This document shows positions 1 through 40,204 of a stretch of DNA of 64,000 bases, piece by piece. Both the position numbers and the translations under genes were made by a program. The notes under the pieces are model-generated. The model was not told the DNA's origin. It worked only from the letters and a program-made list of their open reading frames with translations, and ran no database searches. Within the stretch, counting starts at the first letter, position 1; each line of letters starts with the position of its first letter. This DNA is from a virus (taxonomy: Duplodnaviria; Heunggongvirae; Uroviricota; Caudoviricetes), in the IMG/VR virus record IMGVR_UViG_3300030339_000005. The stretch is one strand, 5' to 3'.

Positions 1-1048
1 TAACAGTTCCAGTATTTCCTACTGCATCTGTTGCTGTAATTACAGAAGTTCCGACTCCAACTAATGTTACTGCTCCAGTTGTAGCATTTACTGTAACAAC
101 TGTTGGAGTTGCTGATACGAAAGCAAGGGCTCCTACTGCATTAGTAGCAGTAATTGTTGTACCTGTATCACCATCACTAACATCTAAAGTAGATTTAGCA
201 GCAGTTAAAGCAACTTTAAAAGTTAAACTAGCATCAGTTAATTCTTGTTCAAATCCAGAAACTAAGTCAGATTTAACATAGAATACATGAGTTGTAATTG
301 CAGTTCCTCCAGATACGATTCCATCATCAATGTGTTTTTCAACTTGATAACGAAGTGTATATTGTGAATAGTTTCCGCCAATAATTGGTCTTTCTTCTTT
401 GTTAGTTCCAAAATATCTTGAATTTTCGTATGTAGGAAGCATGATTGATTTAATCATGTATTCGTCATCTCCGAATCCAACTTTACCAGCTGTAGCAATA
501 TGGAAAGTTCCACCTGTTACATCTTCATATTTAGGTTCAACTAATGAGTTATTTGTATAACCAGCTTCTTTAAGAACTTTTACAGAGAAAAATGCTTGAT
601 TAGAAGTAATAGCGGTTAAGATAATATCTGCTCCATTTGTAGAAGCTGTAATATAGGAGAATCCCCATCTGTCTTTCATACCATTGATTTGTGCTGCTAA
701 AGCAGTTGCATCAGTTGCAGGAGTTCCTGTAGCAAGAACTTCTACTACTACTGGTTTCTTGAAAAATTGAGAGAAGTTAGCGTATTCAGAATCAGTTTGG
801 TTTTGAACTAGTCTTACTTCAACTTCTAATCTAGCAACTAGGCCAGAAGTAATTGCTGGAACAGTTACATGAGCAATTTCTAAAACACCAGCTTGATAAG
901 CTCTTTTATAAACACTAACAATGTTAGCTTTTTTGAAGGTCCCTACACGAGTTACTGTTAGACCTGCGGCACTTCCTGTATATCTGTCGGTTGTACCATT
1001 TGAATCTTTGTTTGAATTTAGAATTGTTGTAGTCGTAAATTGATACAT
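1..1048 (-). CDS. virion structural protein, partial (C-terminal end runs past window start); Thr/Ala/Val-rich tail suggests Ig-like decoration or fiber domain
   Basis: ATG (reverse-complement of cat) at 1046-1048, frame open to position 1; absent from ORF track only because truncated. Confidence 0.45.
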   Translation of the reverse strand, partial: MYQFTTTTILNSNKDSNGTTDRYTGSAAGLTVTRVGTFKKANIVSVYKRAYQAGVLEIAHVTVPAITSGLVARLEVEVRLVQNQTDSEYANFSQFFKKPVVVEVLATGTPATDATALAAQINGMKDRWGFSYITASTNGADIILTAITSNQAFFSVKVLKEAGYTNNSLVEPKYEDVTGGTFHIATAGKVGFGDDEYMIKSIMLPTYENSRYFGTNKEERPIIGGNYSQYTLRYQVEKHIDDGIVSGGTAITTHVFYVKSDLVSGFEQELTDASLTFKVALTAAKSTLDVSDGDTGTTITATNAVGALAFVSATPTVVTVNATTGAVTLVGVGTSVITATDAVGNTGTV

Positions 1049-1081
1049 CTTGTATTAATTTTATGATTTAAAAATTTATAT

Positions 1082-2188
1082 CTATTTTTTGGGTTGTTGT
1101 TGTTCTGCTGGATTGGCAATAGTTGTATTAATTGGAATATGTGATTGTAATCTAGGATCACTAGCATTTTCCATTAATAATTTAATTAACTCATTGACAA
1201 TCTCCTGACAAACGTAATCTGGAAATTCTAATATTTGTGTATTATCTTCAACTTCATCTATCTGATCTTGCGAAAGTCTGATAAATTGTGGTGCTTTAAG
1301 ATAATCAATAAAGATCTTTTGTAATTGAAATACGGAATCGTCTTTACCATAACGAACTTCCATTCTTACTTTTGACTTATTTCCATATCTTGTAGAGGCT
1401 TCTTTTTCAATAAAACTATGAGAACTTGTAGTTTTTAGTAATCCTGCAGTTACAGTTACATCATAAACTCCTGTAATATAAATACATGTTGGAGTTACAG
1501 CATTATCCAAATAAACTTCTTCTGAAGTTAGTCCAATTTCTCGTTTAATAGCTACAACTAATGTTGCAAGCGTTGTTCAATCACCTGGATTAGCTACAGT
1601 AATTCCATCAGCTTCAACTGTTCTTCTAACTGTTAAAGTAGTAGAATTAGTTGGAGTATTAAATGTAATTTTATAAGTTGGATTAATTACTGCTTGATTT
1701 GTAGTAGTGGGAAAGGTACTACTTGTATTAACATTATTAATATAATAATAAGGTCTTTTATAACAAGGTCTTAAGTAATAGTTGTTAATAATTTGAGAGA
1801 ACATGTCGGCTGTAAGTCTTACAGCTCCTTGATGCCATGTTGAATTCGCATCATAACATTTAAAAGTCTTTAAAAGTCTATATTCTACAACACAATTTAG
1901 AACATGCAAATAGTCGTCTGGTAATTCAACTTCATACACTTTATCAAACAATGATGTAGTTCCATAGTCTGTGTTTCCAATAGCGCTAGGAGTAAGAACA
2001 GCTGAGCTCTTTAAAACACGTAGATCATCTGTCTTTTGTTGGTTGATATCATATACGTTGTATACGCGATTAATATATTGATTAACTGCCTTATTAATAA
2101 AATAATTATAATCTTCAAGTATTAGACTTGGAGCCTCTCTTTTATTTAGTTCAATAAGTGCATATTCAAACATTTGTTTTGCAGTCAT
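1082..2188 (-). CDS. hypothetical structural protein, about 368 aa, read through one in-frame TGA at 1577-1579; ends TAG
   Basis: ORFs 1082-1510 and 1577-2188 share a frame, 22 open codons apart, separated only by TGA. Confidence 0.6.
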
Positions 2189-2196
2189 TTATATTG

Positions 2197-3093
2197 CTAT
2201 TTTTTAGGTTGTACTTTTTTTGGATTTTCAGTAACCACTGAGTCCTCAAAGTACGGAATATCTTTTGTAATTTCACTTTCCATTTCTGCAATAACTTGTT
2301 TAGGTTGCAATTCTGGATAAGTTTCACGTTTTATGGAATCTAATAGAGCCTTATATCTAAGATCTCTTAAGAATGTAATAGTAGCTTCCATAGAACCACC
2401 AAGCATTTTATCGTCATATTTATAAATTCCATCAACTCTTCTAACAACATGTCTATCGACAGCATCCATTAGGAATAATTGCATCTTCCAATCTTCTCCT
2501 TCATAAAGATCCATGATCTTTTTAGGATTTTTTTCTGCAATTTCAATCAAGAAATCAAGAACATCAGCAGGAATAGCATTTGATAAATTACGACCTAATA
2601 CTCTACATTTTTTAATTCTTTCGGCTTCAGGATCTTCGTAAATGTATTGCATTGCTTTGAATACAACTTGTTTTTTATTCATTTTAAATTGTGTAATTTC
2701 ACCAGGTCTTTCAACATATAAGTCAGCGACTCCATACTTTCTAGCCCCACCATCAACAATTAAGTTACCTTCTGCATCCCTTTGAAATCTATCTTTAGCT
2801 ATTCAATTACAATATTCAATTGCTTCTCAATTAGCTTTATCAACAACATCGTCTAAATTATAACGTGTTCCATCAATAATTTCAAAAACATGATTTGCAG
2901 CAACAAAATGAATTTCACCTCTGCTCATTTGTCTAACATCTTCTTCGGATAAAATCATATCTCCGTTTGAATCAACCGTTCTTACACAGTCTGGAAGTCT
3001 TCCAGTTCTAGGGTTTGGACAAGGTTGTATAAAGTAGGTTTGATTAACTTTTCCGTAAGCACTTCTAAGAATTATTTCATTATTCATAATCAT
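2197..3093 (-). CDS. hypothetical structural protein, about 298 aa, two in-frame TGA (2803-2805, 2827-2829); ends TAG
   Basis: ORFs 2197-2682 and 2827-3093 same frame; hand translation of the gap shows only TGA interruptions; context ...EYCN[TGA]IAKDRF... Confidence 0.6.
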
Positions 3094-3175
3094 ATATTTT
3101 GTATTTTCTAATTTCTATCTTTGTGTAAGAATCTAAATAAGGGAGAGGGCGAACCCTCCCCCTATTTGATTATTA

Positions 3176-4606
3176 TTAAACTTCTTCAATAATAAATGAT
3201 TTGTAAGGTGCAAATGCAGCAATACCAGAATAACCAGCTACGATCAATTTAGATCCTGCTACTGGGCTAGATACGATACCACTTGTGATACCATCTACTC
3301 CACCAACACCTGGGTATTTAGAAGTAACGAATTCAGCTCCTTGAAGAGTGAATGCAGCAATTGCTGGTTGATTTGTAGAAATATCCGGAGACATGTCTAA
3401 GCAAATACCATAACCTTTTCTATCGTATTCTTTTGTAAGAGCACGATCCACCATGAAAGTAACCATATTACCGGCAATTTCATAAGATGTAAATGTTCCA
3501 CCAACTTTAATAGGATTATCAGCTTTAACCATTGATTGCGTAGCTTTTGAATACATAACCGTTGGAGTTGATCCCCATAATTTTAACCAGTCACCCAGTG
3601 TTGAGTTAATTTGACCCCATAATCTATCATTTACGATAAATGTATAGCTATTACCTGTAGCATTTGCAGCTTTTTGGTTCATTTGATCAATAACTGTGTT
3701 GATTACATTTACGTTAAGTTTAGCGTATTTGTATTTAGAAGCAAATCTTTCGATTTGAGGAATAAGACCATCACCAGCAATCAAAGGACGTCCATCTTCA
3801 GTTAGAACTGTTGATTTACCATTAATATCCATGGTTGATTTACCTCATAATAGGTGATTGTTTTTAACTGTATTAAAGTTTTCTAACAAATCTTTTTCCA
3901 TTTTATTTAATTTGAAAATCTTTTCTTTAAGTTCGCCTGCGCCATCGCCTTCAGCAATTTTAATGAATTGATCTTCCATCTGAGCGTAACGAGCAGAATA
4001 AGAAATGTCATTTCTATGTTCTGTAATCCACTGACGATGTTTTTCAATGTTAGATTGATATTTTGTATATCCTTCTTCATGGTATTCAGGCATGATATTT
4101 GACAAGAATCTTGTCGTCATTCCTAATTGACATGCTGTTGAGTCTAATACTGAAGAGAAATCACTGTCAATTAATTGAGCAGTATATTCCCAGAAGTTAT
4201 CTGCTTTTCTGGTTGGGGTTGCTTTTACAATGCATTGCTGACGTGAGCCATCAATTTTGAAAGTATCATATTTTTCATAATATCTTTCTTTAAAATACAT
4301 TGTGATATCTGCTCCTCCTGCGCCATTACCCGTAGGTGCGGCTGCAAATTCGATTCTTTTAACGAATTCAACATCAATTTCCCATTCGATCATGAGAGAA
4401 TTAATTGGTTGAAATTTGTTAGCAGTTTTCGAGTTATAATAAATGTTCATTAAGGCTTCTGTTAAGAAGGTCGCTGTATTATGTGTATACATGCGAGCCA
4501 TAACTCCCATTAATTTAGGTCTTGTGCCTAAAAGTTTGTAGAAATCTTCATAAGTTCTACTATGAGCCAATTCAGGCTTTACGTTAACGTAACTTGCTAC
4601 TACCAT
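3176..4606 (-). CDS. putative major capsid protein, about 476 aa, one in-frame TGA at 3845-3847
   Basis: ORFs 3176-3832 and 3845-4606 same frame 12 nt apart; size and position after scaffold-like gene; no homology search done. Confidence 0.45.
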
Positions 4607-4617
4607 TGTAATCTAGT

Positions 4618-5595
4618 TTAAATTAAGTCGTGAATACTATTTATTTTTCGTTCGTTGTTTTTGTGAACAACAGTTGGTTTATTATCTGGTTTTTTTAGTT
4701 TAGCAATCTCGGTTTCATATGCATTTTTTAGAGCATCAAAAGATTCTTTGCCATAACGCAAGAACCACGCAGCTTCATATAACTTTTTAGGATCATTTAG
4801 AGTCTTATAAAAGGTACTCGTACCATTGTCATCTAAATCCAATAAAAATGAAAGAACCTCATTCTTTTCATCATCTTCTAACTCAATCCCATAGAATTCT
4901 GGAGTTTCTAAGGCAACATTCACCATTGTTTCAGAGAAGCGATTATACTGCTCTTCTTGTTGCTGTGCAAATTCTTGTTTTTGAGTTTCTTTGTATTGAT
5001 CTTCTAATTGTTTATATTCTGCTCTAAGAATATCAACCTTTTTCTTAAAAAGATTTTCATCTTGTAATTCTTTGTCTAGCTCTTTAACTAGTTCCTCATC
5101 AGTTAGATCATATTTATTTTTTAGATCTAAAAGAAACAGTTCTTGATCGTCATAAGCATCAATATCGTAGTTTTGATCACTAGTATTGCCTAAAGAATCA
5201 ATAATAGATTGTTTATAGTTTTCTAAAAAGTCTTCAACAGTTCAATTATTTTCGCGCAAACGATTTATTAAATCAATTTCTGAATCATCAAGATTATTAT
5301 CTTCAGGTTCAGCAATAGGATTCAATATCTCCAGCTGCTCTTCTTTACTTAAATCATTAAAGTTAACTTTTTGTTCTACTCCCTTTTCATCTATTATAGT
5401 AATCTCAGAATTAGTAATTCCTTTTGCTTTAAGAAGCTCAGTTAAGATAGAATTATCTTCTTTAATCAGTTCTGTGGGTTCTCCGAAAAGATCCTCCTCA
5501 ACTGACACTGGTTCTATTATGTCGGTACCACTATCTGGTAAATCCTCTAAGTTTAATTCGTCATCAAAAATGTCGTCTAATTCATTCATAATCAT
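4618..5595 (-). CDS. scaffold-like acidic coiled-coil protein, about 325 aa, one in-frame TGA at 5242-5244
   Basis: ORFs 4618-4926 and 5242-5595 same frame; the 315-nt gap translated by hand is open and E/K/Q/L-rich. Confidence 0.5.
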
Positions 5596-5851
5596 TTATC
5601 ATTTACAATTGTTTGGTATTTAATATCTATTTTAATCTTATATCTATATTTTAATTTTAGTAATACTCTACTATTTTGTACAAAATTACAACTAATATTC
5701 TGATTAATTTTCATAAATGAGAAATATTTTTAAATTTTATACCTAGAATACTTTTAGATAAGATTTCTTAAAAAATATATTCATACTAAATCAATAGTTA
5801 CGAGTAGCCAATAATTAGCTACTCATAACTAAGATTTGTAAATTTAATAAT

Positions 5852-6072: not shown

Positions 6073-9000
6073 TTAAGGAATAGCTGAAATAATTGTTGAT
6101 TTAGCACTTCAGTTTGTTGCTACTTTATAAGCATTTACACTTGCAGTTGGTACATAAATATGAATTAAATTATTAGTGTAAAGAAAATTACCTGCGTCTA
6201 ATGTAGGCGGAATAACAGTTTTAATAGTAACTGTATTTAACATTGACTGATTAAAAAATATAGATTGTAAAATAGTTTTAACTAGTCTTCCAAAAGTAAC
6301 TGTTTGTAAATTAGAATTACTTCCTACAAAACCATCTTGAAATGTTGCACATATATTAGGTAATATAAAAGTTTGTAACCTATTTAAACTATCAAATGAA
6401 TATTTAGGCATTACATTATCTTTCGTTATTCAATATTTATTTCCACTAACATTATAATAATTTCCATATGAAGTTATTCTAACTCCTGAAATATCAATAT
6501 TTTGAAGATTTCCTCCAGTAGTAGAAGATGCCATTATTTTAAGACAACTAATATCATCACCGTCAATTGTTCCAAATAAATTTATAGACGTTAAACTTAA
6601 ATAATTACTTCCTAAAACAGATCGTAATGTTCCAAATTTTGTAACAACCGTCATTGCTAATCCGAGAATTAAAGAAGAATAAGTACTTCAATTAGTTTGA
6701 TAGTTTGAAACACTTGTAGTTCTAACATTAATAGTAGTTAAAGCAGGACAATTATTAAAAATTGTTGTTCCAATTGCAGGAGCACTACTCGGAAGAGATT
6801 TAACTTTTAACAATCCTGTACAACCATTAAAAACATTGTTTCCTAAAGTCGTAGTATTATTTGGAATAATTACTTCAGTTAAACTAGTACAGCCTGCAAA
6901 AGCAGAATCTCCAACTGTTGTGCAATTATCAGATATGAATATATCAGTTAATCCCGTACAACCATTGAAAGCGTTTGCTCCAATTGAAGTTACTCAATTT
7001 GGTATTATTAAATACCTTAATCCAGTGCATCCATTAAAAGCATTTGCTGGAATTGTTGTAATTCCTTTAAAAAACTCAAACTCAGGAAATGTAGTTATTG
7101 TAGTTTGTCCTTGAAATACAGTTCCAATTGTTGTAGCAGTGTTTAAATCGTCTGGTTGAATTACTCCATCAACATTTGTATCAAAATTATTTAAACATAA
7201 AGTTCCAGTTGCACTATCCTCAAAAGACATTGTTGTTACCATTCAAGATGATTGCGTACTTCAATTTGATGCAGATTGGTAAGCTGCTAAATTTGCAAGC
7301 GGAACATATATTTTAATTGGACTCATTGCATTAAATACACCAGTTCCTAATGTTGGTGGTGTTGCACTTTTACAAATTATATATTCTAGGTTAGAACTTG
7401 ATTGAAAAGCATAACTACTAATTGAAGTTACACTACTTGGAATCACCACTCTTCTAAGATTAATACAAGATGAAAATGCATTATCACTAATATTTGTTAT
7501 AGAATTTGGAATTATAATCGAACTAAGTTTAGTACAACCTTGAAAAAATGCCTGAGATAACATAGGAACATTGTTTGGTAAAACAACATTTATTAATTTT
7601 TCACAACTTTGACAAACACCTCTATTTAAATTAGTTATATTATTATTAAAAAGAATAGTTTCTAATTTTGTATAAGAAAACATTACTGAACCAAGAGTAT
7701 TATTAATATCAATAGAATATCCGTTATAATATGATCTTCCGCCAGCTTTAACATTAGCAGCAGATATATCAAGATAATATAATTTGTATAATTTTGATAA
7801 TTCTCTTATTACATAAACATCATCTCCATTAAAATCTCCTGTAAGTTTTAAGAAAGTTAAATTATAAAAATCATTAATTTTACTTTCTAAAGTTCCTGCA
7901 GAAGCTACAGTTATTGTTCCAATTGGAAAAATAATACTTGCATAACTTGACCATGTTGTTTTATATAAATCTATACTTTCGTAAGGTACATATATGGCCG
8001 TTAAATTAGTCCCACTAAATACATTAGAACCTAAAGTAGGTGGAGTAGAAGATCAAAAAGATATATTAGTTAATGCTATACAATTAAGAAATGCATTATC
8101 TCCAACATTTGTTATACCACTTGGTAAAACAATTGAATTTAATAAAGAACATCCAGAGAATGTATTATTATTAATTATTGTTAATCCAGAAGGTAATTTG
8201 ATATTTGTTAATCCACAATTTTCAAAAGCATTTGTTCCAATAGTTAAAATATTATTAGGTAATATAATACTTCCAATTAGATTAGTACAGCCACTAAATT
8301 CAGAATTATTTAATAAAGTTAATCCAATAAAGTGATTAATTTCACTAAATGAAGTAATTCCAGTATTTCCTTGAAAATGATTAGCCAAAGTTGTAATTGC
8401 AGCAACTTCATTTCCATCAACTATTCCATTAACATTTGTATCTCAATAAGTATTAAATACAGTATTTACAGCAGATGATTGAAAATAAGCAGTTCCAATT
8501 GTTATTGGGATTGATTTATATTTTACTCCATTATAATAAGCATTTAATATTTCAACTCCACTCATCGAATTAAAACTTGTGGTACCATTACCATTAATAG
8601 TAATTTTACTATTTGTTGCAGTTCAAGTAGTTCCTGTTGATACGCCAACTGTTACAACACTTTTTACATCAGTATAATCTTCAGAAGATTGTATTATTAC
8701 AGGTTCAGAACTACCAATTATGGCATCATAAGTTTCTAATCCTTTTGGAATTGGATATCTTCCAGAATTAAATACTCAGTTTGTATCAGTAAAACCAACT
8801 CCAGAACTTCCAGTTCTCAGGGCTGTACCTATTAATTGCAGAGTTGTTTTTTCTTCAATTTGATTAGTAATATCTAATTGTCTTCCTGGATTTTTAGCTA
8901 CTTGTTTATCATAATAATTTGACAATAGTGTGCTAGATACTATTGTTTCATTAAATAATCCGATGATACTACTACTGTAAGTATAATATAAATCTCCATA

Positions 9001-21535: not shown

Positions 21536-21538
21536 GCT

Positions 21539-28908: not shown

Positions 28909-29161
28909 TTGTTCTAATTACTTTATAAATGTCTAGTCTCATATAATTTCTACTTCGTAATTCTGCATATATGAAATCTAAAAACTCTTCGTCTGTTTCA
29001 CAGTCAATATTTAAAGTAGTTGGTGTCATATAACTTGGAATACCAATAGAAAATTTATATCCAGGATTTAATTTTTCTACAGTTAATAAGCCAATATAAT
29101 CAGCTTTATACCAAGTCTTTATATATTCACGAATCGTCTGAATTAATTCTTGTTCTTGCAT
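28889..29161 (-). CDS. hypothetical protein, 90 aa
   Basis: ORF track; ends TAA. Confidence 0.45.
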   Translation of the reverse strand: MQEQELIQTIREYIKTWYKADYIGLLTVEKLNPGYKFSIGIPSYMTPTTLNIDCETDEEFLDFIYAELRSRNYMRLDIYKVIRTNDSKEE

Positions 29162-31195: not shown

Positions 31196-31789
31196 TTAAA
31201 ATCTTATTTGACCTTGATCAAAGAATCCTGCTTCAGTACCACCACGTAATCCACTATCAGGTTCTAATTCTTTTTTAACTTGAGTTTCTAATTCATTTAA
31301 ACTAGCAACAAGTTCTTTAGCATTTTTAATATTACTAATTAAATCCTTAGAACTAAAAATTGGTTTCCCAGTTACAGCATCTCGTTCATTAATATCAACC
31401 GTCTCAAAGTAAAAAATTAATTTTTCTACCGCTGACATACATGCTCTAAGCATTCTAATATTAATACCTCCATTTTGTATAGATTCATACATTCTGCAAG
31501 CACTTTTAAATTCTGGATCTTCAAATTCTTCGTCTGTTAATCCAGAATTCTCCAGTGAACGTTGATGCCTATCTTGTTCAGGCTCATTAAAGAATGGACT
31601 TTCCCAATCAAAGAAAAGGAAAATGTATGCAAATTCTTTGTAAGCTCTTATTTTATTTTTTCCTAATGGATCGGCTGTACATTTATTACGTTGCTCATTC
31701 ATTAATATAGCAAATTCCTTAACAAGAAGAATTCCTTCTCTATTAATTACTACTTGCTCATTTACATTATCATATATAAAAAATTTCAT
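31196..31789 (-). CDS. hypothetical protein, 197 aa; possible small terminase subunit by position only
   Basis: ORF track; immediately upstream of terL. Confidence 0.35.
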   Translation of the reverse strand: MKFFIYDNVNEQVVINREGILLVKEFAILMNEQRNKCTADPLGKNKIRAYKEFAYIFLFFDWESPFFNEPEQDRHQRSLENSGLTDEEFEDPEFKSACRMYESIQNGGINIRMLRACMSAVEKLIFYFETVDINERDAVTGKPIFSSKDLISNIKNAKELVASLNELETQVKKELEPDSGLRGGTEAGFFDQGQIRF

Positions 31790-31824
31790 ATTTGTTGTAT
31801 TAAATTAACTATTAATTTTGTATC

Positions 31825-33387: not shown

Positions 33388-33400
33388 TTTTTAAGAAAAA

Positions 33401-33625
33401 TTAAAGTTTTATTAAATCTTTTGTATTGAAGATACTTTCTTGAAGTTCTCCGTTTGCTGTGAATCATTTACATAGAATGCCTTGAAAGTAATCATTCTTT
33501 ACATCTTGAGTTCGAATAGTTTTAGTAACTTTACGAACTACCAACATTGTTGGTTTATTAGGAAGTTCTTGTCTTAGAGTCACAACGTCTCCAGGTAAGA
33601 AAAATTGTTTTGTGTCATTAATCAT
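33401..33625 (-). CDS. hypothetical small protein, 74 aa, one in-frame TGA at 33464-33466
   Basis: Hand translation MINDTKQFFLPGDVVTLRQ...GILCK[W]FTANGELQESIFNTKDLIKL; not in ORF track. Confidence 0.4.
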
Positions 33626-33679
33626 ATTTTATTATTTTGCATTTCGGTTATAAAAAATAACCATTCGTTTGTATACATA

Positions 33680-34231
33680 TTATTCCATATTTAAACGTTC
33701 TTTTAATTTGTCATTTAAGAAACATAGAATTTGTGGTTCACTAGTTAGGATATACCCAAGAGACATAAAGGGAATTGGATAAACTGTTCGTGTATCATAG
33801 AATACATCATCATTTGGTTTAACAAATTTACAATCAGGCCCTACTTCAATAACTTTAGCACAAGCTACAAGTTCTTTTAAGTTATCATTCTCTCCAGAAT
33901 CGGGATTTAAGAATTGTCCTTTATACTCTCCAATAAATAAGCCACCTTGCGATAAGGTTTTCTTATATGGATTAGAAGGATAGGGAAGTAAGATAACTTT
34001 ATTACCCATTGGTAACATCTCTAGAGTTTGAATTCTTGCTTCTAATTCTTTTTGTTTTTCTAATTCTAGTTCGTATTTTAATTTACGTGCCTCTTCTTTA
34101 ACCTTATTATCTTTCTCTAGTTCTAATTCTAATTTCTCTTTTGCAAAAGGTTCAGCCATTTGAATTAAATTCTTACCCATAAAATAACTTCCATTTGCTT
34201 CATTTAAAGTCTTATCCATAATCATTATCAT
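33680..34231 (-). CDS. hypothetical protein, 183 aa, coiled-coil N-terminal half
   Basis: ORF track. Confidence 0.4.
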   Translation of the reverse strand: MIMIMDKTLNEANGSYFMGKNLIQMAEPFAKEKLELELEKDNKVKEEARKLKYELELEKQKELEARIQTLEMLPMGNKVILLPYPSNPYKKTLSQGGLFIGEYKGQFLNPDSGENDNLKELVACAKVIEVGPDCKFVKPNDDVFYDTRTVYPIPFMSLGYILTSEPQILCFLNDKLKERLNME

Positions 34232-34497
34232 TTATTTATTATACATTTTTCTTCATCTACTCTAGTCTTACTTCCTAATACACATCCACATCCTTGAATA
34301 AATCCAGGTTGTTCAATTCTAGAAACATTTCCATCTTTATTTATATATTTAGATGCATCACACATCTCTCCTCATAATTTATCTACTTTATGTAAAGGAC
34401 ATTCTCGACAAATCGTTATACGACTTTTATAAAGTTCATCTTTTTTATTTAGTAGATTATTATAAAAGCCTTCTGCTATTTGAGTAATAGAAGACAT
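34225..34497 (-). CDS. small Cys-rich (CxxC...CxC) zinc-ribbon-like protein, about 90 aa, TGA-recoded
   Basis: Hand translation MSSITQIAEGFYNNLLNKKDELYKSRITICRECPLHKVDKL[W]GEMCDASKYINKDGNVSRIEQPGFIQGCGCVLGS... Confidence 0.4.
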
Positions 34498-34931
34498 GCT
34501 CCAACAAAGCCTACTACTGTACCTCCACCAAGCCAAGCTGGCCATAAGGACGCACGTTTTTTATATTTTATCTTTAGATTAGTTTCTTTTTCTATTCTAG
34601 CATCAGCTTTTTTTAGTTCTGATTTTTGAAAAGTAACAGCATCTTCTGCTATCTTTACAGATTCATCTCTATTCTTAACTTGAATTCTTAAATTGCCAAT
34701 TTCTTTAGATTGTGCTTCAATAGATTCTTGTCCAACATAATATAATTGTGAAGTTTCTTCAAGATTAGTGATATAAATTCTTAAGTCCATTAACTCTTGC
34801 TTAGTAAATGTATATACTATTGTTGTATCTTTTCCATCTGTACTAATTTTCCAAGTTATTGATGATTGAGTCCAACCATTTAGCGTGGTTAGCAGCAGAA
34901 GCATCATGGATAATATTAATTTCTTGATCAT
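34476..34931 (-). CDS. secreted or membrane protein, 151 aa, N-terminal signal and C-terminal TM helix; spanin-like by architecture
   Basis: MIKKLILSMMLLLLTTLNG... and C-terminal LWPAWLGGGTVVGFVGACLLLLK. Confidence 0.4.
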   Translation of the reverse strand: MIKKLILSMMLLLLTTLNGWTQSSITWKISTDGKDTTIVYTFTKQELMDLRIYITNLEETSQLYYVGQESIEAQSKEIGNLRIQVKNRDESVKIAEDAVTFQKSELKKADARIEKETNLKIKYKKRASLWPAWLGGGTVVGFVGACLLLLK

Positions 34932-35205
34932 GCTTAATAAGTATTTGTTGTTTAACTTTTTCTAATGAATCTAATTTGACTTCTAAAGTCTTTTGTTCCA
35001 ATTTTAACTCAGTATAAATACTATCTTTATCATGAATTTGCTTCATGTATAATTGAATAATTAAGTCCCTATCACTACGATATTCAATATCTTTATGATT
35101 AATTATATATGCTGTTCCACCTATAACTAATAGTAGACCTACCATATGTAATCCAAGTTTAGAACGTAATTTTTTCCCTAATTCTTTTAAATTCATCATA
35201 TTCAA
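34843..35205 (-). CDS. membrane protein, N-terminal TM helix plus coiled coil, 120 aa; overlaps 34476-34931 in another frame
   Basis: LGLHMVGLLLVIGGTAYII followed by coiled-coil-rich sequence. Confidence 0.4.
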   Translation of the reverse strand: MNMMNLKELGKKLRSKLGLHMVGLLLVIGGTAYIINHKDIEYRSDRDLIIQLYMKQIHDKDSIYTELKLEQKTLEVKLDSLEKVKQQILIKHDQEINIIHDASAANHAKWLDSIINNLEN

Positions 35206-36091
35206 TTTGTTTTCTATAAAATGTTAACATTCTCTCAACGTCATTCTTTAAATACTCACATTCATATGTTGTACATCCACCATCGTGATCATAGTGTACA
35301 AGAATTAATTCTTTAATAGTAACTCCTGGGAATTGTTTTTCAATCATCCAAGCATAAGTAGATAATTGTAAACTGTAATGCCAAAAGTTAGTATCTTGTA
35401 AGTTGTTTAAAGGATACTTCATCATTTGAGACTTCTTAGTTTTTCTATCAAAATAAGAAGCCTTTTTAATTTCTTTATTTGTTTTATAATCTAAAATATA
35501 AACATCAGTTCCATCAATAATAACTAAGTCTGCTTGACCTGCAATTCTTAAAACTCTATCTTCTGATACTCGAGATAATAATAATTCAGGATATACTCCT
35601 TGTTCTCCTAAGCATATTTGATTCGTTAATCTTGGAGTAAATTTTCCACCCAATCCAAGATGTTGTAATTCTTTAGTATTACCAGCCATATGTTCCAATT
35701 CTTGAAGTCTATGGATTGCTGTCCCTCGCATACAAGAAGCCTCACGTTTGGAGGCCCACTCTTGAAGAATTTCTGCCCTAGCTTCATTAAACTCATCCTC
35801 AGTTACAGCAACTTCATCTAAGTATTTTAAATGAAATCTTTTTGTATTTAATAAGGCAGGTTTAATATTTATAAAAGCGTCAGGTACTAAAGACTCTAAT
35901 GCTTTGTAAGCTGACCAAAACTCTTCGTCAAATGTTGTAAATTGATGTATTAAAGTTGTTACTGAGATACAAGGTTCTCTGGAACTCTTTGTCCAGTATT
36001 TATGCATTTTATCATTATAACTAACAGCTGAATTTTCTTTATCAATTTCTAATTCACCATAGTTAATTTCATTTTCATTTATCATTATCAT
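35159..36091 (-). CDS. PD-(D/E)XK-family nuclease (exonuclease or Cas4-like), 310 aa
   Basis: Motif AGQADLVIIDGTDVYILDYKT (D...D-x-K) and C-terminal Cys pair. Confidence 0.5.
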   Translation of the reverse strand: MIMINENEINYGELEIDKENSAVSYNDKMHKYWTKSSREPCISVTTLIHQFTTFDEEFWSAYKALESLVPDAFINIKPALLNTKRFHLKYLDEVAVTEDEFNEARAEILQEWASKREASCMRGTAIHRLQELEHMAGNTKELQHLGLGGKFTPRLTNQICLGEQGVYPELLLSRVSEDRVLRIAGQADLVIIDGTDVYILDYKTNKEIKKASYFDRKTKKSQMMKYPLNNLQDTNFWHYSLQLSTYAWMIEKQFPGVTIKELILVHYDHDGGCTTYECEYLKNDVERMLTFYRKQIEYDEFKRIREKITF

Positions 36092-36095
36092 TATT

Positions 36096-36788
36096 TTAAT
36101 TTACAAGTTCTTCCCAATTTTCTAAACAAAGAAGTCCACTAATTTTTTGAGATGCTTCAGCGATATTAGCTATTACATCATCTACACTAAATATGTGCCC
36201 TTCTTTAACTGTTAACAATAGAACTCCTAATAATTGATCCACTCCATAAATAGCATAAAATACTGCCGATCCACAAGTATGTTGTTTTAATAAGTTATAA
36301 ATAGCTGGAAAAGTAAGTCTAATATCTTCTGAATGCCCAATATAAATATAACCAATATTTTCAACTTCCAGTAAAAAATCTGCAAAGAGAGATACATTAA
36401 CTCGTTGATATGCATATGCTATGCTTGTTGAGCCAACTGCAAAACATTCACATGTAGCATTTACAAATAAAAAAGGTAAGCCTGCTAAATTTGAACTGCC
36501 GTTTGAAAATTCAAAAAGTATAGCTCTATTAATCTTTGTATTCACAATTAAATCAGAAAGAGTTCGTGATACTTCGGCAGCTATATTTTTTCTTTTAAGA
36601 TTTGCTTTAACATGTTCTTGGGCTTGTTGTGTTTCTCGTCTATCTATATACTTCTCAATTAAAGTCGGAGACGCTTTAATAAGAGTATGTATTCCAAAGA
36701 AGACGCCTCCTAATAATAAGCACGCGATTGCAGTAGTCATTCCATAAGTTTCAGCAATCTGTTTAAAAAAAGTAAGTAGGTGTTCCAT
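36096..36788 (-). CDS. membrane-anchored protein, 230 aa
   Basis: N-terminal hydrophobic segment TAIACLLLGGVFFGIHTLI. Confidence 0.4.
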   Translation of the reverse strand: MEHLLTFFKQIAETYGMTTAIACLLLGGVFFGIHTLIKASPTLIEKYIDRRETQQAQEHVKANLKRKNIAAEVSRTLSDLIVNTKINRAILFEFSNGSSNLAGLPFLFVNATCECFAVGSTSIAYAYQRVNVSLFADFLLEVENIGYIYIGHSEDIRLTFPAIYNLLKQHTCGSAVFYAIYGVDQLLGVLLLTVKEGHIFSVDDVIANIAEASQKISGLLCLENWEELVN

Positions 36789-36964
36789 TAATTGTCGTTG
36801 GTTTAAAGTGAGTACACTATTTATTATTTATACAAAGGTATTAATAAATTTTACAACAAAAATAAGATTCAATAAAAATCTTAAACAGAATTAATCTCGT
36901 TATTGTCATTGAAATTTTTTTGCATATTAACAAAAAAGGAGGCAAATTAATTGCCTCCTCACTT

Positions 36965-37657
36965 TTATATTTGGTGTTCTCGTAAAACTGCTAAAATATC
37001 TTTAATAATTGGATTCCTAACACTATCACTATCTTCAAATTCTACTACTGAAACTACAGAACTATCTTGAAAAATCTTTGCAACTTTTAATAAACAAGAT
37101 TCTTCAATTTTTTTTCTATCTACTTGTTCAGTATCACCTAGAAAAATAAATTTACAATTACTTCCGATACGAGTAATTAAAGATTTAAATGTATGGGTAT
37201 CTATGTTCTGCGTTTCATCAACAATTACTATACAATCGTCTTGTGTAACTCCACGTACATAAGCTATAGGGAGAATATCTATCAGACCTTTCTTAATAAA
37301 GTCATTTGATACACCTTTTTTGGCAAATAATTTATCTATGTTACCTGTAAAAGAAACAATATAAGGTTCCATTTTTTCTTCCATAGATCCTGGAAGATAA
37401 CCAATGTTTTCACCTGTAATAGTTTGGACTGATTTTACAATTACAATACGTTTATACTTGTTTCCAAGTAATCCAAATGCTGTTCCTAAAGCACAATACG
37501 TTTTTCCCGTACCTGCTGGACCTGTGCAGATTGTTATTTCGCTGCTAGTAATAGCATCACGAAACTCTTCTTGTTTGTCGTTCAGACAGTGAAACCTGTG
37601 TAAATTCTGAACTTGTTCGTCTGGGACTCGTCCCTTTTCTTTGCCTTCTTTTCTCAT
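36965..37657 (-). CDS. phoH: PhoH-like ATPase, 230 aa
   Basis: Walker A ICTGPAGTGKTYCALG, Walker B IVIVDETQN, typical PhoH length. Confidence 0.7.
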   Translation of the reverse strand: MRKEGKEKGRVPDEQVQNLHRFHCLNDKQEEFRDAITSSEITICTGPAGTGKTYCALGTAFGLLGNKYKRIVIVKSVQTITGENIGYLPGSMEEKMEPYIVSFTGNIDKLFAKKGVSNDFIKKGLIDILPIAYVRGVTQDDCIVIVDETQNIDTHTFKSLITRIGSNCKFIFLGDTEQVDRKKIEESCLLKVAKIFQDSSVVSVVEFEDSDSVRNPIIKDILAVLREHQI

Positions 37658-37707
37658 AAGTTGTTGTTTAGTTCACTAAAAATATCTATCGCTATAGATA
37701 AGTAGTT

Positions 37708-37742
37708 TTAAAAAGTAGGGCCGCCTAATAACTAAGCGGCCC
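37708..37742 (-). terminator. rho-independent terminator (minus-strand orientation)
   Basis: GGGCCGC-11 nt-GCGGCCC hairpin followed by TTTTT on minus strand, downstream of the tRNA gene. Confidence 0.55.
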
Positions 37743-37817
37743 GATGGTTAATGCGAGATATCTCGTTATGCATATATATATTTATTACATCATGTGTCGC
37801 ATACCATTTAAATTTCT

Positions 37818-37913
37818 TGGCACGGGTATCAGGACTCGAACCCGAATAATGAAGTTTGGACCTCCACGTGTGGTTTTGAAGACCACTTCTATTCCCAATA
37901 GGAAAGTACCCGC
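37818..37913 (-). tRNA. suppressor tRNA reading UGA (anticodon UCA); long variable arm, G73 discriminator, encoded CCA, irregular D-arm
   Basis: Minus strand GCGGGTA...GTGGT-CTTCAAA-ACCAC...TGGAG-GTCCAAA-CTTCA...TCGGG-TTCGAGT-CCTGA-TACCCGT-G-CCA; 7-bp acceptor, 5-bp anticodon stem with loop CUUCAAA, canonical T-arm. Confidence 0.6.
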
Positions 37914-37920
37914 ATATTGT

Positions 37921-38133
37921 TTAATTTAAACTATCAATATAATCAATGTCTTTAAGTAGTTCCTCAAAGTCAATCTTACTAATTGGCCCAATATAATATT
38001 TTCCAACAGTCTTGTCCGGATCATTAAATACTTCCATAGTATTTCCATCTATTCTTACCGTCCAGTCATTTCTAGTCCATTCATTTTCATCTATATCCTT
38101 TGTAAAGCCATTTTTTCTTAAAATCATTTCCAT
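37921..38133 (-). CDS. hypothetical protein, 70 aa
   Basis: ORF track. Confidence 0.35.
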   Translation of the reverse strand: MEMILRKNGFTKDIDENEWTRNDWTVRIDGNTMEVFNDPDKTVGKYYIGPISKIDFEELLKDIDYIDSLN

Positions 38134-38392
38134 ATCATTCTCTAATTTTATAATACAAATATACGAGATTATTTTTAGAAAAAATCTACATTTTTTGCTT
38201 ATCTAAAAATTCTTTATTTAAAACTAATTACGTTAAGTTTTTTCTAAAAAAAGAGAGATCTTTAAACTACACGTAACATGAGTGACATTTAATATCATCC
38301 AATAAATAAAATTTAATAAAGATAAATTTTTTTAAAATATTTGTTATAACTTTGTGCATTAAACAAGATTATAAATAAAATCATTATAAGTT

Positions 38393-40204
38393 ATGCCAAA
38401 ACTATTAATCAATAAATCAAAGGAAAGACAAATTGCTCCGCCTGATAATATTGTCTCGCCAAATAAATTTGTTATACCTGAGGCTAAAGTATTAACTAAG
38501 ACACCTATAGGTCAAGGAATACGAATGAATTATGTGGATGCTAGTAAAGCTCCATATCAGGATCGTTATGCTGCAGAAAAAGAAGCACAAATGGCAAGAG
38601 CAAATGCTCCACTAGAAAATGTATATCCAGAATTTGATATTATTACTATGGCTGGCGGATTAGGAGAAGTAGGCAAATCTTTATTACAGAATACTTATAA
38701 AATTAATCCTCTTGCTAAGAGAGTTGTTGGGGAAGGAGATTTCTTAATGAATCCAAAACCTAATTGACTTACAGGATATAAAGTAGCACCAACTCTTGAC
38801 GATATTATTGCTCGAAATCAAGGACTTAGACCTAAGTTAAATAAGTTATTAGTTAAAGATCGTGGTATGGTGTATGGCAATGATGAAGCTTTAGTAAATT
38901 CTGCACCTATAGCATATGAAACTCATCCTAAAGGTGAGATGATTCTATATCAAGACATGGCTAATCCAGCACATCATTTCTTTGATGCTAATATGCCAGG
39001 CCAACCTTTACAAGCAGGAAGATCTTTTAATAGATTAATGACTAAAGTTCCTGTAGATGGTTATGTTGAAGAGGCTGGGACATTAAGTTTAGATGCCCTT
39101 AAGACAACTCTTAAACAAACTACAAAACCTGGCTTTAAAGGTGAATTACCTGGCACTAAAATTTCCTTAAATAATTCTGCCTTTATAAAGAAGCTGCCTG
39201 GTACTATTGATAATGGTAAAAGTCCTATTACATTTGACTCTTATTTTAAAGCAAGGGCTGGAGCTAAAGAAGTTACTAAGATGTATCAAGAATTTGGATT
39301 TCCTAAAGCTAAAGCCACTTTATATAGAAGTAATATGGATACTCAGTTTGGAATTAATGTTCCTAATATTCGTTTATCTCGAGTTCCACCAGTTAAAGAT
39401 GTATCAGGAATAACTTTAGAAGATTTTAAGAAAGTTAATTGATATAAAGAGTTAACCGCTATTCCTAATGGCGCCGCTAAAAATGCAAGAACACTTCTTG
39501 GAGAAGTCCAAGATCGTTTAAGAACTCCTGAAGGAATTCGTCGAGCTAAATCATTGGGAGTGGATTCTAGAGATTTAAATAGTAGTGTTGTAATAGATAG
39601 TTATTTAAGTCCAGCCTATCATGGTACAACTTCAATTGGAAATGGAAATGTTTTTGGCATTAGTCCAATATTAAAGAACCCAGATGTTCGTCCTATTATG
39701 CGACATGAAATTGAACACTCTTTCCAAAAGGTTAATAGTTTAGATACTAAAATGCCTACAGTTATTGATGATATATTAAAAGACTTAGAACTACAAGAGC
39801 CATTAAAAAATGTAACTCAATTAGAAAAGGCTCCAACATTAAAACAAGAGTCGTATCTAACTAAGTTACGAAATGATGAAAATGCCGCAGATTATTTTAA
39901 TTTTGGAAATAGGAAAGGGCCTTCATTAGAAAGAGCGCCTATGTTAGCAGAAGTGCAACAATATGCTTTAGATCAAGGATTAACAAAGCACCCATATGAT
40001 CCAGTTACACCTGATAAAGTTAGAGAAATATTTAACTTCTATCAATCTTCTCCCAAAGAATTTCCATTAAGAATCTTTAATATAATGCAGCCGTCAGATA
40101 ATAATATGTATACTATAGCTAAAGGATTGAATAGAATGTTATCTGTTCCTGCAGCTGGTTTAGCAGCCAAAACATTAATACCAAAAAAGAAAGCCGAGCA
40201 GTAA
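38393..40204 (+). CDS. HExxH zinc-metallopeptidase-like protein, about 603 aa, plus-strand, two in-frame TGA (38765-38767, 39440-39442); ends TAA
   Basis: ORFs 38393, 38867, 39554 share a frame with open gaps; motif PIMRHEIEHSF. Confidence 0.55.

What the first reader, a model, noticed from the sequence alone, without database searches (positions are those of the whole stretch)
1..40204. Late-gene block uses TGA as a sense codon (code-4-like stop-codon recoding)
Across about 37 kb of minus-strand genes and the plus gene 38393-40204, consecutive standard-code ORFs fall in the same frame with short open gaps. Every internal stop I checked is TGA (reverse-complement tca), never TAA or TAG. TAA and TAG terminate the merged genes normally. 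Reading TGA as sense gives plausible single proteins: TerL 29106-31193, portal-sized 26686-28908, MCP-sized 3176-4606, and a single 12.9-kb ORF 6073-18978. Standard annotation would shred this module into about 60 fragments. Stop-codon recoding of late genes is known in Crassvirales and Lak-type phages; the extent here and the choice of TGA are worth documenting.
Basis: partly seen in the sequence, partly recalled or inferred. Interest (0 to 1): 0.85.

Follow-up and report, generated by a model that had tools for sequence, protein, structure and literature searches.

The report
TGA-as-tryptophan late genes, odd suppressor tRNA
This is part of a 178-kb crAss-like phage whose structural and lysis genes read the stop codon TGA as tryptophan, a phenomenon already known in such phages. 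The less ordinary part is that the phage's own TGA-reading tRNA has an unusual long-armed shape that standard annotation misses.

Summary
Fourteen complete late genes (1082-31193 minus strand, plus 38393-40204 plus strand) carry 87 in-frame TGA, no in-frame TAA or TAG, and all end in TAA or TAG. Under the standard code they break into 101 fragments.

TGA means tryptophan. It lies opposite W, F or Y in TerL, portal and MCP homologs, and TGA+TGG (1.11%) matches the TGG frequency of the unrecoded genes (1.05%).

The recoding is partitioned. Eight genes at 31196-37657 and about 35 right-arm genes have no sense TGA, and six right-arm genes stop at TGA.

A tRNA with anticodon UCA (37818-37913, minus strand) heads the late-strand block, just after a conserved 70-aa ORF. 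More than 60 related contigs are recoded in the same way, with the tRNA at the same position.

TGA-to-Trp late-gene recoding in crAss-like phages is published, so the core finding is a new member of a known kind.

The new element is the tRNA. It is 96 nt with a 7-bp extra arm and covariation-supported, but falls below Rfam thresholds. It has G73, a 1-72 pair of A-U (G.U in the window) and C35-A36, as in the tryptophan identity set. Long-armed forms occur in three separated branches beside short-type relatives. Tryptophan charging is inferred, not shown.

The parts
29106..31193 (-). Terminase large subunit (695 aa) with 8 in-frame TGA. The first is codon 3.
   Evidence: PHROG 6681, E=1.8e-60. 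Single-piece tblastn match at 45.6% identity to standard-code MT835470. Its TGA columns hold W, F or Y in 41 distinct homologs.
26686..28908 (-). Portal protein (740 aa) with 6 TGA.
   Evidence: PHROG 6547, E=4.6e-46. Opposite its TGA in relatives: TGA 112, W 92, Y 38, F 32.
24233..26683 (-). Late protein of 816 aa with 12 TGA and no family match.
23469..23969 (-). GH24-type endolysin (166 aa) with 2 TGA and 2 TGG.
   Evidence: PHROG 7, E=3.4e-16. PDB 8b2s GH24 muramidase aligns across both TGA.
19252..23464 (-). Four late genes (19252-20457, 20444-21535, 21539-22546, 22868-23464) carrying 7, 2, 3 and 1 TGA. One has an fn3 domain and one a weak, sub-threshold lamin-tail match; likely tail or fibre proteins.
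6073..18978 (-). Single 12.9-kb gene encoding 4,301 aa with 39 TGA. BspA-type leucine-rich repeats and internal paralogous domains suggest a giant adhesin or tail protein.
   Evidence: Pfam LRR_5, E=8.9e-66. Stop-codon counts for all six frames. Paralogous repeats put TGA opposite W, for example GIGNxIPIGN against GIGNWLPIGN.
3176..4606 (-). crAss-type major capsid protein (476 aa) with 1 TGA.
   Evidence: Pfam Crass_capsid, 44.8 bits against a cutoff of 27. Full-length matches at about 52% identity to MT835470 and MT835492. The TGA lies opposite F in both.
1082..5595 (-). Three further late genes beside the MCP (1082-2188, 2197-3093, 4618-5595) carrying 1, 2 and 1 TGA.
38393..40204 (+). Divergently transcribed gene of 603 aa with 2 TGA and an HExxH motif. 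Function unknown.
   Evidence: The ENA assembly calls it as one 603-aa product under code 4.
37818..37913 (-). Phage-encoded tRNA with anticodon UCA (96 nt, encoded CCA). It has a 7/5 acceptor/T domain, a 5-bp D stem with a 3-nt loop, a 7-bp variable arm with one bulge, G73 and G1.U72.
   Evidence: ARAGORN. Rfam tRNA-Sec model at 38 bits, below the gathering score of 47, and no Rfam hit at gathering level. In 7 distinct homologs, 99% of cells pair and 13 of 29 pairs show compensatory changes. The position upstream of PhoH is the same across the clade.
37923..38133 (-). Conserved 70-aa ORF that ends 10 nt before the tRNA. Function unknown; possible partner in the code-switch cassette.
   Evidence: Present directly upstream of the tRNA(UCA) in nearly all clade members whatever the tRNA type. 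63 representative homologs, nearly all 58-100 aa. No Pfam, PHROG or PDB-fold match.
37718..37742 (-). Intrinsic-terminator-like hairpin with a T run, 75 nt after the tRNA.
   Evidence: 11-bp stem with 7 G-C pairs; the shuffle expectation is 0.2 sites.
31196..37657 (-). TGA-free middle block of 8 genes between the tRNA and TerL. It includes PhoH, a PD-(D/E)XK nuclease, a peptidoglycan-binding protein and small membrane proteins.
   Evidence: 0 TGA in 1,939 codons. Pfam hits. The gene order is conserved, and relatives carry 0-5 TGA per gene here.
40218..63607 (.). Standard-code arm with no sense TGA in 6,010 codons. Six ORFs end in TGA, at 50010-50012, 50318-50320, 50814-50816, 51938-51940, 56658-56660 and 57415-57417. 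Three of these have ATGA overlaps with the next gene. Five of the six have a back-up stop 2-10 codons downstream; the sixth has one 41 codons downstream.

Best explanation
The window is 64 kb of a roughly 178-kb crAss-like phage that runs two genetic codes.

Shown:
- In 14 late genes (packaging, capsid, tail or adhesin, endolysin), three quarters of the tryptophan codons are written TGA.
- The early arm and a middle block use only TGG for tryptophan, and some of their genes terminate at TGA.
- The phage carries its own tRNA with anticodon UCA at the head of the late-strand block.
- The same arrangement is found in more than 60 related contigs.

Inferred mechanism:
- The host uses the standard code.
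- Early after infection only the TGA-free genes can be completed.
- The tRNA(UCA) cassette (small ORF, tRNA, terminator) is then expressed.
- The tRNA is charged with tryptophan by the host TrpRS, which would recognise G73, the 1-72 pair and C35-A36.
- The charged tRNA competes with release factor 2 at UGA and so licenses full-length late proteins.
- Early genes that end in TGA gain only short tails (2-10 residues in five of six), because back-up stops follow closely.

The suppressor here is not the usual 73-nt tRNA-Trp derivative. It is a 96-nt tRNA with a long variable arm, and forms of this kind sit at the same locus in three separated branches of the clade, next to relatives with the short form.
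For: TGA is a sense codon:
- 87 in-frame TGA and 0 TAA or TAG in 10,434 late codons.
- Six-frame stop counts for the giant ORF.
- Coding density of 94.6% under code 4.

TGA means Trp:
- In 41 distinct TerL sequences, columns containing TGA hold 20.6% W against a background of 0.7%, plus Y and F; S is depleted.
- Opposite the window's TGA in relatives: TGA 339, W 218, F 91, Y 45, S 1, G 2.
- Against the standard-code relative MT835470: W 4, F 3, Y 3, L 2, R 1.
- Within the window's own subclade, the pairwise partner of TGA is W 141 times and S once.
- TGA+TGG is 1.11% of late codons, against TGG at 1.05% in the right arm.

The recoding is partitioned:
- 0 TGA against 78 TGG outside the late set, and 87 TGA against 29 TGG inside it (Fisher p=5e-30).
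- Six right-arm ORFs end in TGA, three with ATGA overlaps.

The tRNA:
- Detection and scores; structure and covariation.
- It is syntenic with tRNA(UCA) genes upstream of PhoH in relatives.
- G73 is present in all types. The 1-72 pair is A-U in 6 of 7 long-A variants and G.U in the window. G1-C72 occurs in 0 of 7 and C2-G71 in 4 of 7.
- These match the bacterial Trp identity set and miss the conserved tRNA-Ser acceptor pairs listed in PMC9976931.

Precedent: the same phenomenon is described in crAss-like phages in PMC7886860, 10.1101/2021.08.26.457843 and PMC12386605.
Against: - No experiment exists. Neither the inserted residue nor the timing of tRNA expression has been observed.
- A long variable arm plus G73 is the main serine determinant (PMC9976931, PMC5389517). 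By textbook rules this tRNA could therefore be serylated at least in part.
- The Trp identity elements A9 and G2-C71 are absent in the window tRNA.
- Only about 84 kb of the 178-kb genome was visible (the window plus flanks). A second, canonical tRNA-Trp(UCA), a TrpRS or a release factor elsewhere in the genome cannot be excluded.
- Relatives carry a few TGA in the middle block, so the early/late boundary is not absolute.
- The host is unknown.
Confidence: 0.85

Rival explanations
1. The host itself uses code 4 (TGA = Trp), and the phage simply mirrors it. There would then be no code switch.
For: The genome is AT-rich at 33% GC, like many code-4 lineages. The host was not identified.
Against: 78 Trp codons outside the late set are all TGG and none is TGA. 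Six right-arm ORFs end in TGA, three with the ATGA stop/start overlap typical of the standard code. The phage encodes its own tRNA(UCA). crAss-type MCP, TerL and portal point to standard-code hosts such as Bacteroidota, and the published cases infer standard-code hosts.
Confidence: 0.04
2. The long-armed tRNA(UCA) is charged by SerRS, so TGA is read as serine, or ambiguously as Ser and Trp, in this phage.
For: A long variable arm and G73 are the principal serine determinants, and SerRS ignores the anticodon (PMC9976931; PMC5389517). The long-C variant in a relative (L043) looks, by eye against tRNA-Ser(UGA) sequences recalled from memory, like tRNA-Ser(UGA) with a G35-to-C change.
Against: Ser is almost never opposite TGA: 1 of 747 aligned residues, and 1 against 141 W within the window's subclade. 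TGA occupies nearly invariant Trp columns of TerL. TGA+TGG equals the normal Trp frequency. The G1-C72 pair, conserved in most bacterial tRNA-Ser, is absent in all 7 long-A variants. C2-G71, a known SerRS antideterminant in E. coli tRNA-Leu, is present in 4 of 7 including the window.
Confidence: 0.07
3. TGA is read as glycine (code 25), as in Absconditabacteria or Gracilibacteria and their phages.
For: Code-25 phages exist.
Against: Gly is opposite TGA in 2 of 747 aligned residues and is depleted in TGA columns (0.7% against a background of 7.0%).
Confidence: 0.01
4. The TGA codons reflect selenocysteine insertion, pseudogenes or assembly errors.
For: ARAGORN labels the tRNA 'SeC', and the best Rfam model is tRNA-Sec.
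Against: There are 87 sites in 14 genes, all lying on aromatic columns. The tRNA has a 7/5 rather than an 8/5 acceptor/T domain and lacks the C7-G66 and G49.U65 pairs that reject EF-Tu. The same genome was assembled independently at 178,281 and 178,286 bp and is seen in at least 55 blocks of the assembly collection. More than 60 related contigs share the pattern.
Confidence: 0.01

Closest known systems
TGA-to-Trp (code 4) recoding of late genes in crAss-like phages, especially the large Zeta group (Yutin et al. 2021, PMC7886860; Babkin et al. 2025, PMC12386605)
   Same: Large genome of about 178 kb. crAss-type MCP, TerL and portal, and a PD-(D/E)XK nuclease. In-frame TGA confined mostly to late genes and aligned with Trp. 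A phage-encoded tRNA(UCA). Close relatives that differ in code: MT835470 is standard, and MT835492 has four in-frame TAG in its MCP.
   Different: TerL is only about 28% identical to classified Crassvirales and 46% to the nearest GenBank record. Membership of the Zeta group was not tested. The relatives come from IMG/VR and from unclassified metagenome assemblies whose habitat was not determined. The suppressor here has a long variable arm, whereas the described ones are typed as Trp or Arg-like by tRNAscan-SE.
Stop-codon recoding as a lytic-stage switch (Borges et al., 10.1101/2021.08.26.457843)
   Same: Early genes are standard-code compatible. Structural and lysis genes, including the endolysin, are recoded. 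The suppressor tRNA gene lies in standard-code context upstream of the recoded block.
   Different: No RF1 or TrpRS 'code-change module' was found in the roughly 84 kb inspected. Instead, a conserved 70-aa ORF is tightly linked to the tRNA.
tRNA-Sec and allo-tRNAs (Mukai et al. 2017, PMC5389517)
   Same: UCA anticodon, G73, long variable arm, and an elongated D stem with a very small loop. The Rfam tRNA-Sec model scores higher than the general tRNA model.
   Different: The acceptor/T domain is 7/5, not 8/5, 8/4 or 9/3. It lacks the C7-G66 and G49.U65 EF-Tu antideterminants. It decodes 87 ordinary Trp positions rather than rare SECIS-directed sites. The score is below the Rfam gathering threshold.
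Canonical opal-suppressor tRNA-Trp(UCA), as in Mycoplasma, E. coli suppressors and most relatives in this clade
   Same: UCA anticodon in a CUUCAAA loop, G73, and A-U or G.U at positions 1-72. The locus is the same as that of the 72-75-nt tRNAs in most relatives.
   Different: About 22 extra nucleotides form a 7-bp variable arm. The D stem is 5 bp with a 3-6-nt loop. A 5-nt linker replaces U8-N9. A9 is absent.

Membership tests
Code-4-type stop-codon recoding in phages | In-frame TGA in conserved late genes (TerL, portal, MCP), with TAA and TAG kept as terminators | tested here: met
   8, 6 and 1 TGA in TerL, portal and MCP. No TAA or TAG in frame. Terminators are TAA or TAG.
Code-4-type stop-codon recoding in phages | TGA aligns with tryptophan in homologs | tested here: met
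   W and other aromatics dominate, while S and G are near zero.
Code-4-type stop-codon recoding in phages | Phage-encoded suppressor tRNA with anticodon UCA | tested here: met
   The tRNA at 37818-37913(-). It is syntenic in relatives.
Code-4-type stop-codon recoding in phages | Early genes remain compatible with the standard code | tested here: met
   0 TGA in 7,949 codons of the middle block plus right arm. Six ORFs stop at TGA.
Code-4-type stop-codon recoding in phages | Tryptophan actually inserted at UGA (proteomics) | not testable with these tools
   Needs mass spectrometry of virions or infected cells.
Crassvirales / crAss-like phages | crAss-type major capsid protein | tested here: met
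   Pfam PF23898 Crass_capsid, 44.8 bits against a cutoff of 27.
Crassvirales / crAss-like phages | TerL and portal related to those of crAss-like phages | tested here: met
   tblastn hits of 26-29% identity over about 85% of TerL to many classified Crassvirales. PHROG 6681 and 6547.
Crassvirales / crAss-like phages | Giant virion RNA-polymerase proteins and placement within the order in a phylogeny | not tested
   The 4,301-aa protein matched only LRR domains. No formal order-level phylogeny was made.
Bacterial tRNA-Trp identity set (PMC9976931) | G73 discriminator | tested here: met
   G73 in the window tRNA, in all 7 long-A variants, in long-B and long-C, and in the short-type relatives read by eye.
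Bacterial tRNA-Trp identity set (PMC9976931) | A1-U72 pair | tested here: inconclusive
   A-U in 6 of 7 long-A variants, and G.U in the window itself. G1-U72 is reported as an identity element for a rice mitochondrial tRNA-Trp.
Bacterial tRNA-Trp identity set (PMC9976931) | C35 and A36 (C34 replaced by U34 to read UGA) | tested here: met
   Anticodon loop CUUCAAA is invariant.
Bacterial tRNA-Trp identity set (PMC9976931) | G2-C71 to G5-C68, and A9 | tested here: not met
   The window has C2-G71, G3-C70, G4-C69 and G5-C68, with U at position 9. This is a partial match only.
Bacterial tRNA-Ser | Long variable arm and G73 | tested here: met
   7-bp arm with covariation.
Bacterial tRNA-Ser | Conserved G1-C72 and G2-C71 | tested here: not met
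   G1-C72 in 0 of 7. G2-C71 in 2 of 7, and the window has C2-G71.
tRNA-Sec | 13-bp acceptor/T domain (8/5 in bacteria) and the EF-Tu antideterminants C7-G66 and G49.U65 | tested here: not met
   The domain is 7/5. The 7-66 pair is G-C or A-U, and the 49-65 pair is U-A in all 7. Rfam tRNA-Sec scores 38 bits against a gathering score of 47.
allo-tRNA (Mukai 2017) | 8/4 or 9/3 acceptor/T configuration | tested here: not met
   An eighth pair would be a C.A mismatch in 6 of 7 variants. The T stem is 5 bp in all.

The most novel reading that the evidence does not exclude
The 93-100-nt tRNAs(UCA) with long variable arms, found in the window and in parts of its clade, may be tryptophan acceptors. That would make them a type-II, Sec-like architecture for tRNA-Trp. 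On this reading:
- they have replaced the canonical tRNA-Trp-derived opal suppressor at the same locus at least three times;
- they work together with the tightly linked 70-aa protein;
- they are one reason why most TGA-recoded phages appear to lack a suppressor tRNA in standard annotation.
Probability: 0.35. Interest if true: 0.7.

Novelty: new variant of a known kind. Interest (0 to 1): 0.5.

Why it matters
The recoding itself matters for annotation. One public assembly of this same genome is called correctly under code 4, while another is shredded into fragments. Any catalogue built from the shredded calls loses TerL, portal, MCP and a 4,301-aa adhesin-like protein.

The scientific interest lies in the suppressor. 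Surveys detect suppressor tRNAs in only about 35-40% of recoded phages and have guessed that the rest are too divergent to find. Here a covariation-supported tRNA(UCA) scores below Rfam thresholds, and ARAGORN missed two of its variants.

If a long-armed tRNA is really charged with tryptophan, it breaks the rule that a long variable arm plus G73 means serine. It would then be a natural example of tRNA identity being re-engineered, and possibly a useful orthogonal opal suppressor.

The clade also lets one compare short, long and intron-split versions of one suppressor gene at one locus.

Tried and rejected
- Near-identity DNA search of 24-44 kb against GenBank phages found nothing.
- A single-protein PhoH scan of IMG/VR returned only distant PhoH genes. 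It was replaced by an alignment-based scan.
- A pattern for the long-A variable loop and T arm found nothing in 185,579 species-representative genomes. No bacterial source of the tRNA was therefore identified.
- I looked for a theta or HDV-like ribozyme after the tRNA, as described for phage suppressor tRNAs (10.1101/2023.06.13.544163). None appeared in permissive Rfam scans.
- There is no special nucleotide context after sense TGA. The +4 base distribution resembles that of all codons.
- In distant solved GH24 lysozymes, the residues opposite the endolysin's TGA are P and E, not W. That gene supports contiguity but not the amino-acid assignment.
- The small ORF has no Pfam or PHROG family. 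The word-indexed protein search gave 2 hits. The single-sequence AlphaFold model (pLDDT 79.6) has no significant PDB match.
- No RF1, RF2 or TrpRS domain was found among the window proteins scanned, or in the precomputed Pfam labels of the flanking 10 kb.
- Rfam at gathering level found no group I intron model in the split tRNA genes of relatives.

Full report
**1. The observation**

The window is AT-rich, at 33% GC overall. The first 44 kb are about 29-33% GC and the last 20 kb are 36-43%.

Treating only TAA and TAG as stops merges the minus-strand ORFs between 1082 and 31253 into 13 genes. It also turns 38390-40204(+) into a single gene. ORFs to the right of 40.2 kb barely change.

Counted from the first ATG, the late set has 10,434 codons. 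These contain 87 in-frame TGA, 29 TGG and no TAA or TAG. Every complete gene ends in TAA (11 genes) or TAG (3 genes).

The 12.9-kb ORF at 6073-18978 is real. Its frame contains one TAA, the terminator, no TAG and 41 TGA. The other five frames of the same DNA contain 141-439 TAA+TAG.

Under the standard code the 14 genes become 101 fragments. Under code 4 the block is 94.6% coding.

**2. What the genes are**

| Gene | Identity | Evidence |
|---|---|---|
| 29106-31193 | Large terminase | PHROG 6681, E=1.8e-60, one stretch over residues 50-637 |
| 26686-28908 | Portal | PHROG 6547 |
| 23469-23969 | GH24 endolysin | |
| 3176-4606 | crAss-type major capsid protein | Pfam Crass_capsid above its cutoff |
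| 6073-18978 | Giant protein with BspA-type leucine-rich repeats | |

TerL is about 28% identical to many classified Crassvirales. It is 46% identical, in one piece, to MT835470.1, an unannotated human-gut phage contig. The MCP matches MT835470.1 and MT835492.1 over its full length at about 52% identity.

The exact PhoH protein of the window occurs in 55 blocks of the public assembly collection. Two independent contigs measure 178,281 and 178,286 bp, so the genome is about 178 kb. In one of these assemblies the genes were called under code 4, giving a 695-aa TerL. In the other they are shredded.

**3. Which amino acid TGA encodes**

- An IMG/VR scan with TerL gave 64 related loci at 57-76% identity (one more distant, at 27%). 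All 57 clade TerL genes examined contain 6-19 in-frame TGA.
- In a MAFFT alignment of 41 distinct TerL sequences, columns holding a TGA contain 20.6% W against a background of 0.7%, plus Y and F. S and G are depleted. Eight columns are nearly invariant W or TGA.
- Over all window proteins with homologs, the residues opposite the window's TGA are TGA 339, W 218, F 91, Y 45, L 16, G 2 and S 1.
- Against the standard-code relative MT835470, whose homologous genes have no TGA, they are W 4, F 3, Y 3, L 2 and R 1. Every alignment runs through the TGA positions.
- Inside the window's own subclade, TGA pairs with W 141 times and with S once.
- TGA+TGG makes up 1.11% of late codons. TGG alone makes up 1.05% of right-arm codons.

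TGA is therefore a tryptophan codon, as in code 4.

**4. The partition**

The eight genes between 31196 and 37657 have no TGA in 1,939 codons. They include PhoH, a PD-(D/E)XK nuclease, a peptidoglycan-binding protein and small membrane proteins. The roughly 35 right-arm genes have none in 6,010 codons. All 78 Trp codons in these two sets are TGG (Fisher p=5e-30 against the late set).

Six right-arm ORFs end in TGA. Three of them have ATGA overlaps with the next gene. Five of the six have a back-up TAA or TAG 2-10 codons downstream; the sixth has one 41 codons downstream.

This argues for a standard-code host and a switch during infection. In relatives the middle block carries 0-5 TGA per gene, so the boundary is soft.

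**5. The suppressor**

ARAGORN finds a 96-nt tRNA with anticodon UCA at 37818-37913(-). Rfam finds nothing at gathering thresholds. A permissive scan gives tRNA-Sec at 38 bits, below its gathering score of 47.

The tRNA lies 10 nt after a 70-aa ORF (37923-38133). A terminator-like hairpin follows 75 nt downstream (37742-37718), just before PhoH.

The gene order is conserved across the clade: small ORF, tRNA(UCA), PhoH, further middle-block genes, TerL, portal.

Most relatives have an ordinary 72-75-nt tRNA(UCA) at this position. The long forms are:

| Form | Where found | Length |
|---|---|---|
| Long-A | Window, L061 and L102 | 95-96 nt |
| Long-B | L019 and L023 | 100 nt |
| Long-C | L043 | 93 nt |

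The L043 tRNA has a D arm and anticodon loop that look, by eye against tRNA-Ser(UGA) sequences recalled from memory, like tRNA-Ser(UGA) with a G35-to-C change.

On a TerL neighbour-joining tree the three long forms sit in separate branches, and long-C is sister to a short-type genome. This suggests at least three switches at one locus.

A metagenome pattern scan added four more distinct long-A variants. Several lie on contigs with the same small ORF-tRNA-PhoH order.

On the seven distinct long-A sequences, my proposed cloverleaf pairs in 99% of cells. It has compensatory changes at 13 of 29 pairs. No shuffle out of 500 reached these values, and the slid controls are far lower. The proposed structure is:
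- a 7-bp acceptor stem
- a 5-bp D stem with a 3-6-nt loop
- a 5-bp anticodon stem
- a 7-bp variable arm with one bulge
- a 5-bp T stem

One caveat applies. The invariance of the T stem and the variable loop is partly imposed by the search pattern.

**6. Which amino acid the tRNA carries (inference)**

The review of tRNA identity (PMC9976931) gives these rules:
- Bacterial Trp: G73, A1-U72, G2-C71 to G5-C68, A9, C34-C35-A36.
- Bacterial Ser: the variable arm as main determinant, G73, and G1-C72 and G2-C71 conserved in most bacterial tRNA-Ser. C2-G71 acts as an antideterminant against SerRS in E. coli tRNA-Leu.
- tRNA-Sec: C7-G66, G49.U65 and C50-G64 reject EF-Tu.

The long-A tRNAs compare as follows:

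| Feature | Long-A tRNAs |
|---|---|
| Discriminator | G73 in 7 of 7 |
| Pair 1-72 | A-U in 6, G.U in the window, never G-C |
| Pair 2-71 | C-G in 4 (including the window), G-C in 2, U-A in 1 |
| Pair 7-66 | G-C or A-U |
| Pair 49-65 | U-A |
| Anticodon | C35-A36 |

They therefore carry the main Trp elements. They lack the conserved Ser acceptor pairs and two of the three EF-Tu-rejecting pairs of tRNA-Sec. Together with section 3, this makes Trp charging by the host TrpRS the most likely reading. It is not shown, and partial serylation cannot be excluded.

**7. Comparison with what is known**

- TGA-to-Trp and TAG-to-Gln recoding, mostly of late genes, with suppressor tRNAs, was described for 243 crAss-like phages. 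That work included code switches over short phylogenetic distances (PMC7886860).
- Borges et al. generalised this and proposed recoding as a switch for the lytic stage. They detected TGA suppressors in only 35% of code-4 genomes and suggested that non-canonical tRNAs escape detection.
- Babkin et al. described TGA recoding in 160-180-kb Zeta crAss-like phages.
- The window's relatives show the same flexibility. MT835470 uses the standard code, while MT835492 has four in-frame TAG in its MCP.

Two full-text literature searches found no description of a long-variable-arm opal suppressor used for Trp positions in phages. The nearest structural precedents are tRNA-Sec and the allo-tRNAs, which are serine or cysteine acceptors with 8/4 or 9/3 domains. 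The tRNA here does not meet their defining features.

**8. Verdict**

The added value is the code-switch cassette of a conserved small ORF plus a non-canonical tRNA(UCA), together with the diversity of that tRNA gene across the clade. Interest is moderate at 0.5. It would be higher if the long-armed tRNA proves to be a true tryptophan acceptor.

Noticed in passing
window 37923-38133 (-): A 70-aa ORF ends 10 nt before the suppressor tRNA. Homologs sit directly upstream of the tRNA(UCA) in nearly every clade member, whatever the tRNA type. The family has 63 representative homologs, nearly all 58-100 aa. It has no Pfam or PHROG hit, and the single-sequence AlphaFold model (pLDDT 79.6, helix, four strands, helix) has no PDB fold match.
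   Followed up: partly
L087:1648-2560 and L100:4070-4760 (relatives): In two relatives the tRNA(UCA) gene is split inside the anticodon, after CUU between U34 and C35. The insertions are about 650 and 850 nt long and end in ...GTAAG. One carries an ORF. This looks like a group I intron. From memory, the position matches that of the cyanobacterial tRNA-Leu(UAA) intron. Rfam gathering thresholds report no intron.
   Followed up: partly
window 48785-48882 (+): A tRNA-like element has perfect acceptor, D and T arms, but a 40-nt region forming a long hairpin of about 15 bp where the anticodon arm should be. ARAGORN calls it 'tRNA-Cys(aca)'. It lies in a roughly 1-kb non-coding, GC-richer stretch at 48715-49691.
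   Followed up: partly
window 49525-49592 (+): A second tRNA-like sequence lies in the same non-coding stretch. It scores 24.8 bits on the Rfam tRNA model, below the gathering score of 29, and has a shortened anticodon arm.
   Followed up: no
window 50930-51034 (+): Weak match to the Hatchet self-cleaving ribozyme (32.8 bits, gathering score 51, E=0.011). It lies in and just before the start of ORF 51021-51557.
   Followed up: no
L173 (MT835492.1 113763-115184): The MCP of this 52%-identical relative has four in-frame TAG and no TGA. It thus appears to be TAG-recoded, while MT835470.1 uses the standard code. Three codes therefore occur among close relatives.
   Followed up: partly
L161:2121-2225 and L162:1654-1758: ARAGORN did not call the long-A tRNA(UCA) in these two metagenome contigs, although the sequence fits the covariation-supported structure. 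In L161 it sits inside an array of 11 other tRNA genes.
   Followed up: partly
L030/L031 and L058/L059 (TerL region): In some relatives the TerL match is split into two pieces 0.7-1.1 kb apart. This suggests an intron or intein insertion in TerL, as reported for large crAss-like phages.
   Followed up: no
L100:209-1263 (-): Three copies of the Rfam DUF805b RNA motif score above the gathering threshold (37-47 bits) upstream of the tRNA region in one relative.
   Followed up: no
L170:12884-15450 (10 kb beyond the window's right end): The genome continues with nucleotide-metabolism genes, according to precomputed Pfam labels: adenylosuccinate synthetase, an IMPDH-family enzyme and a NUDIX hydrolase.
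   Followed up: no
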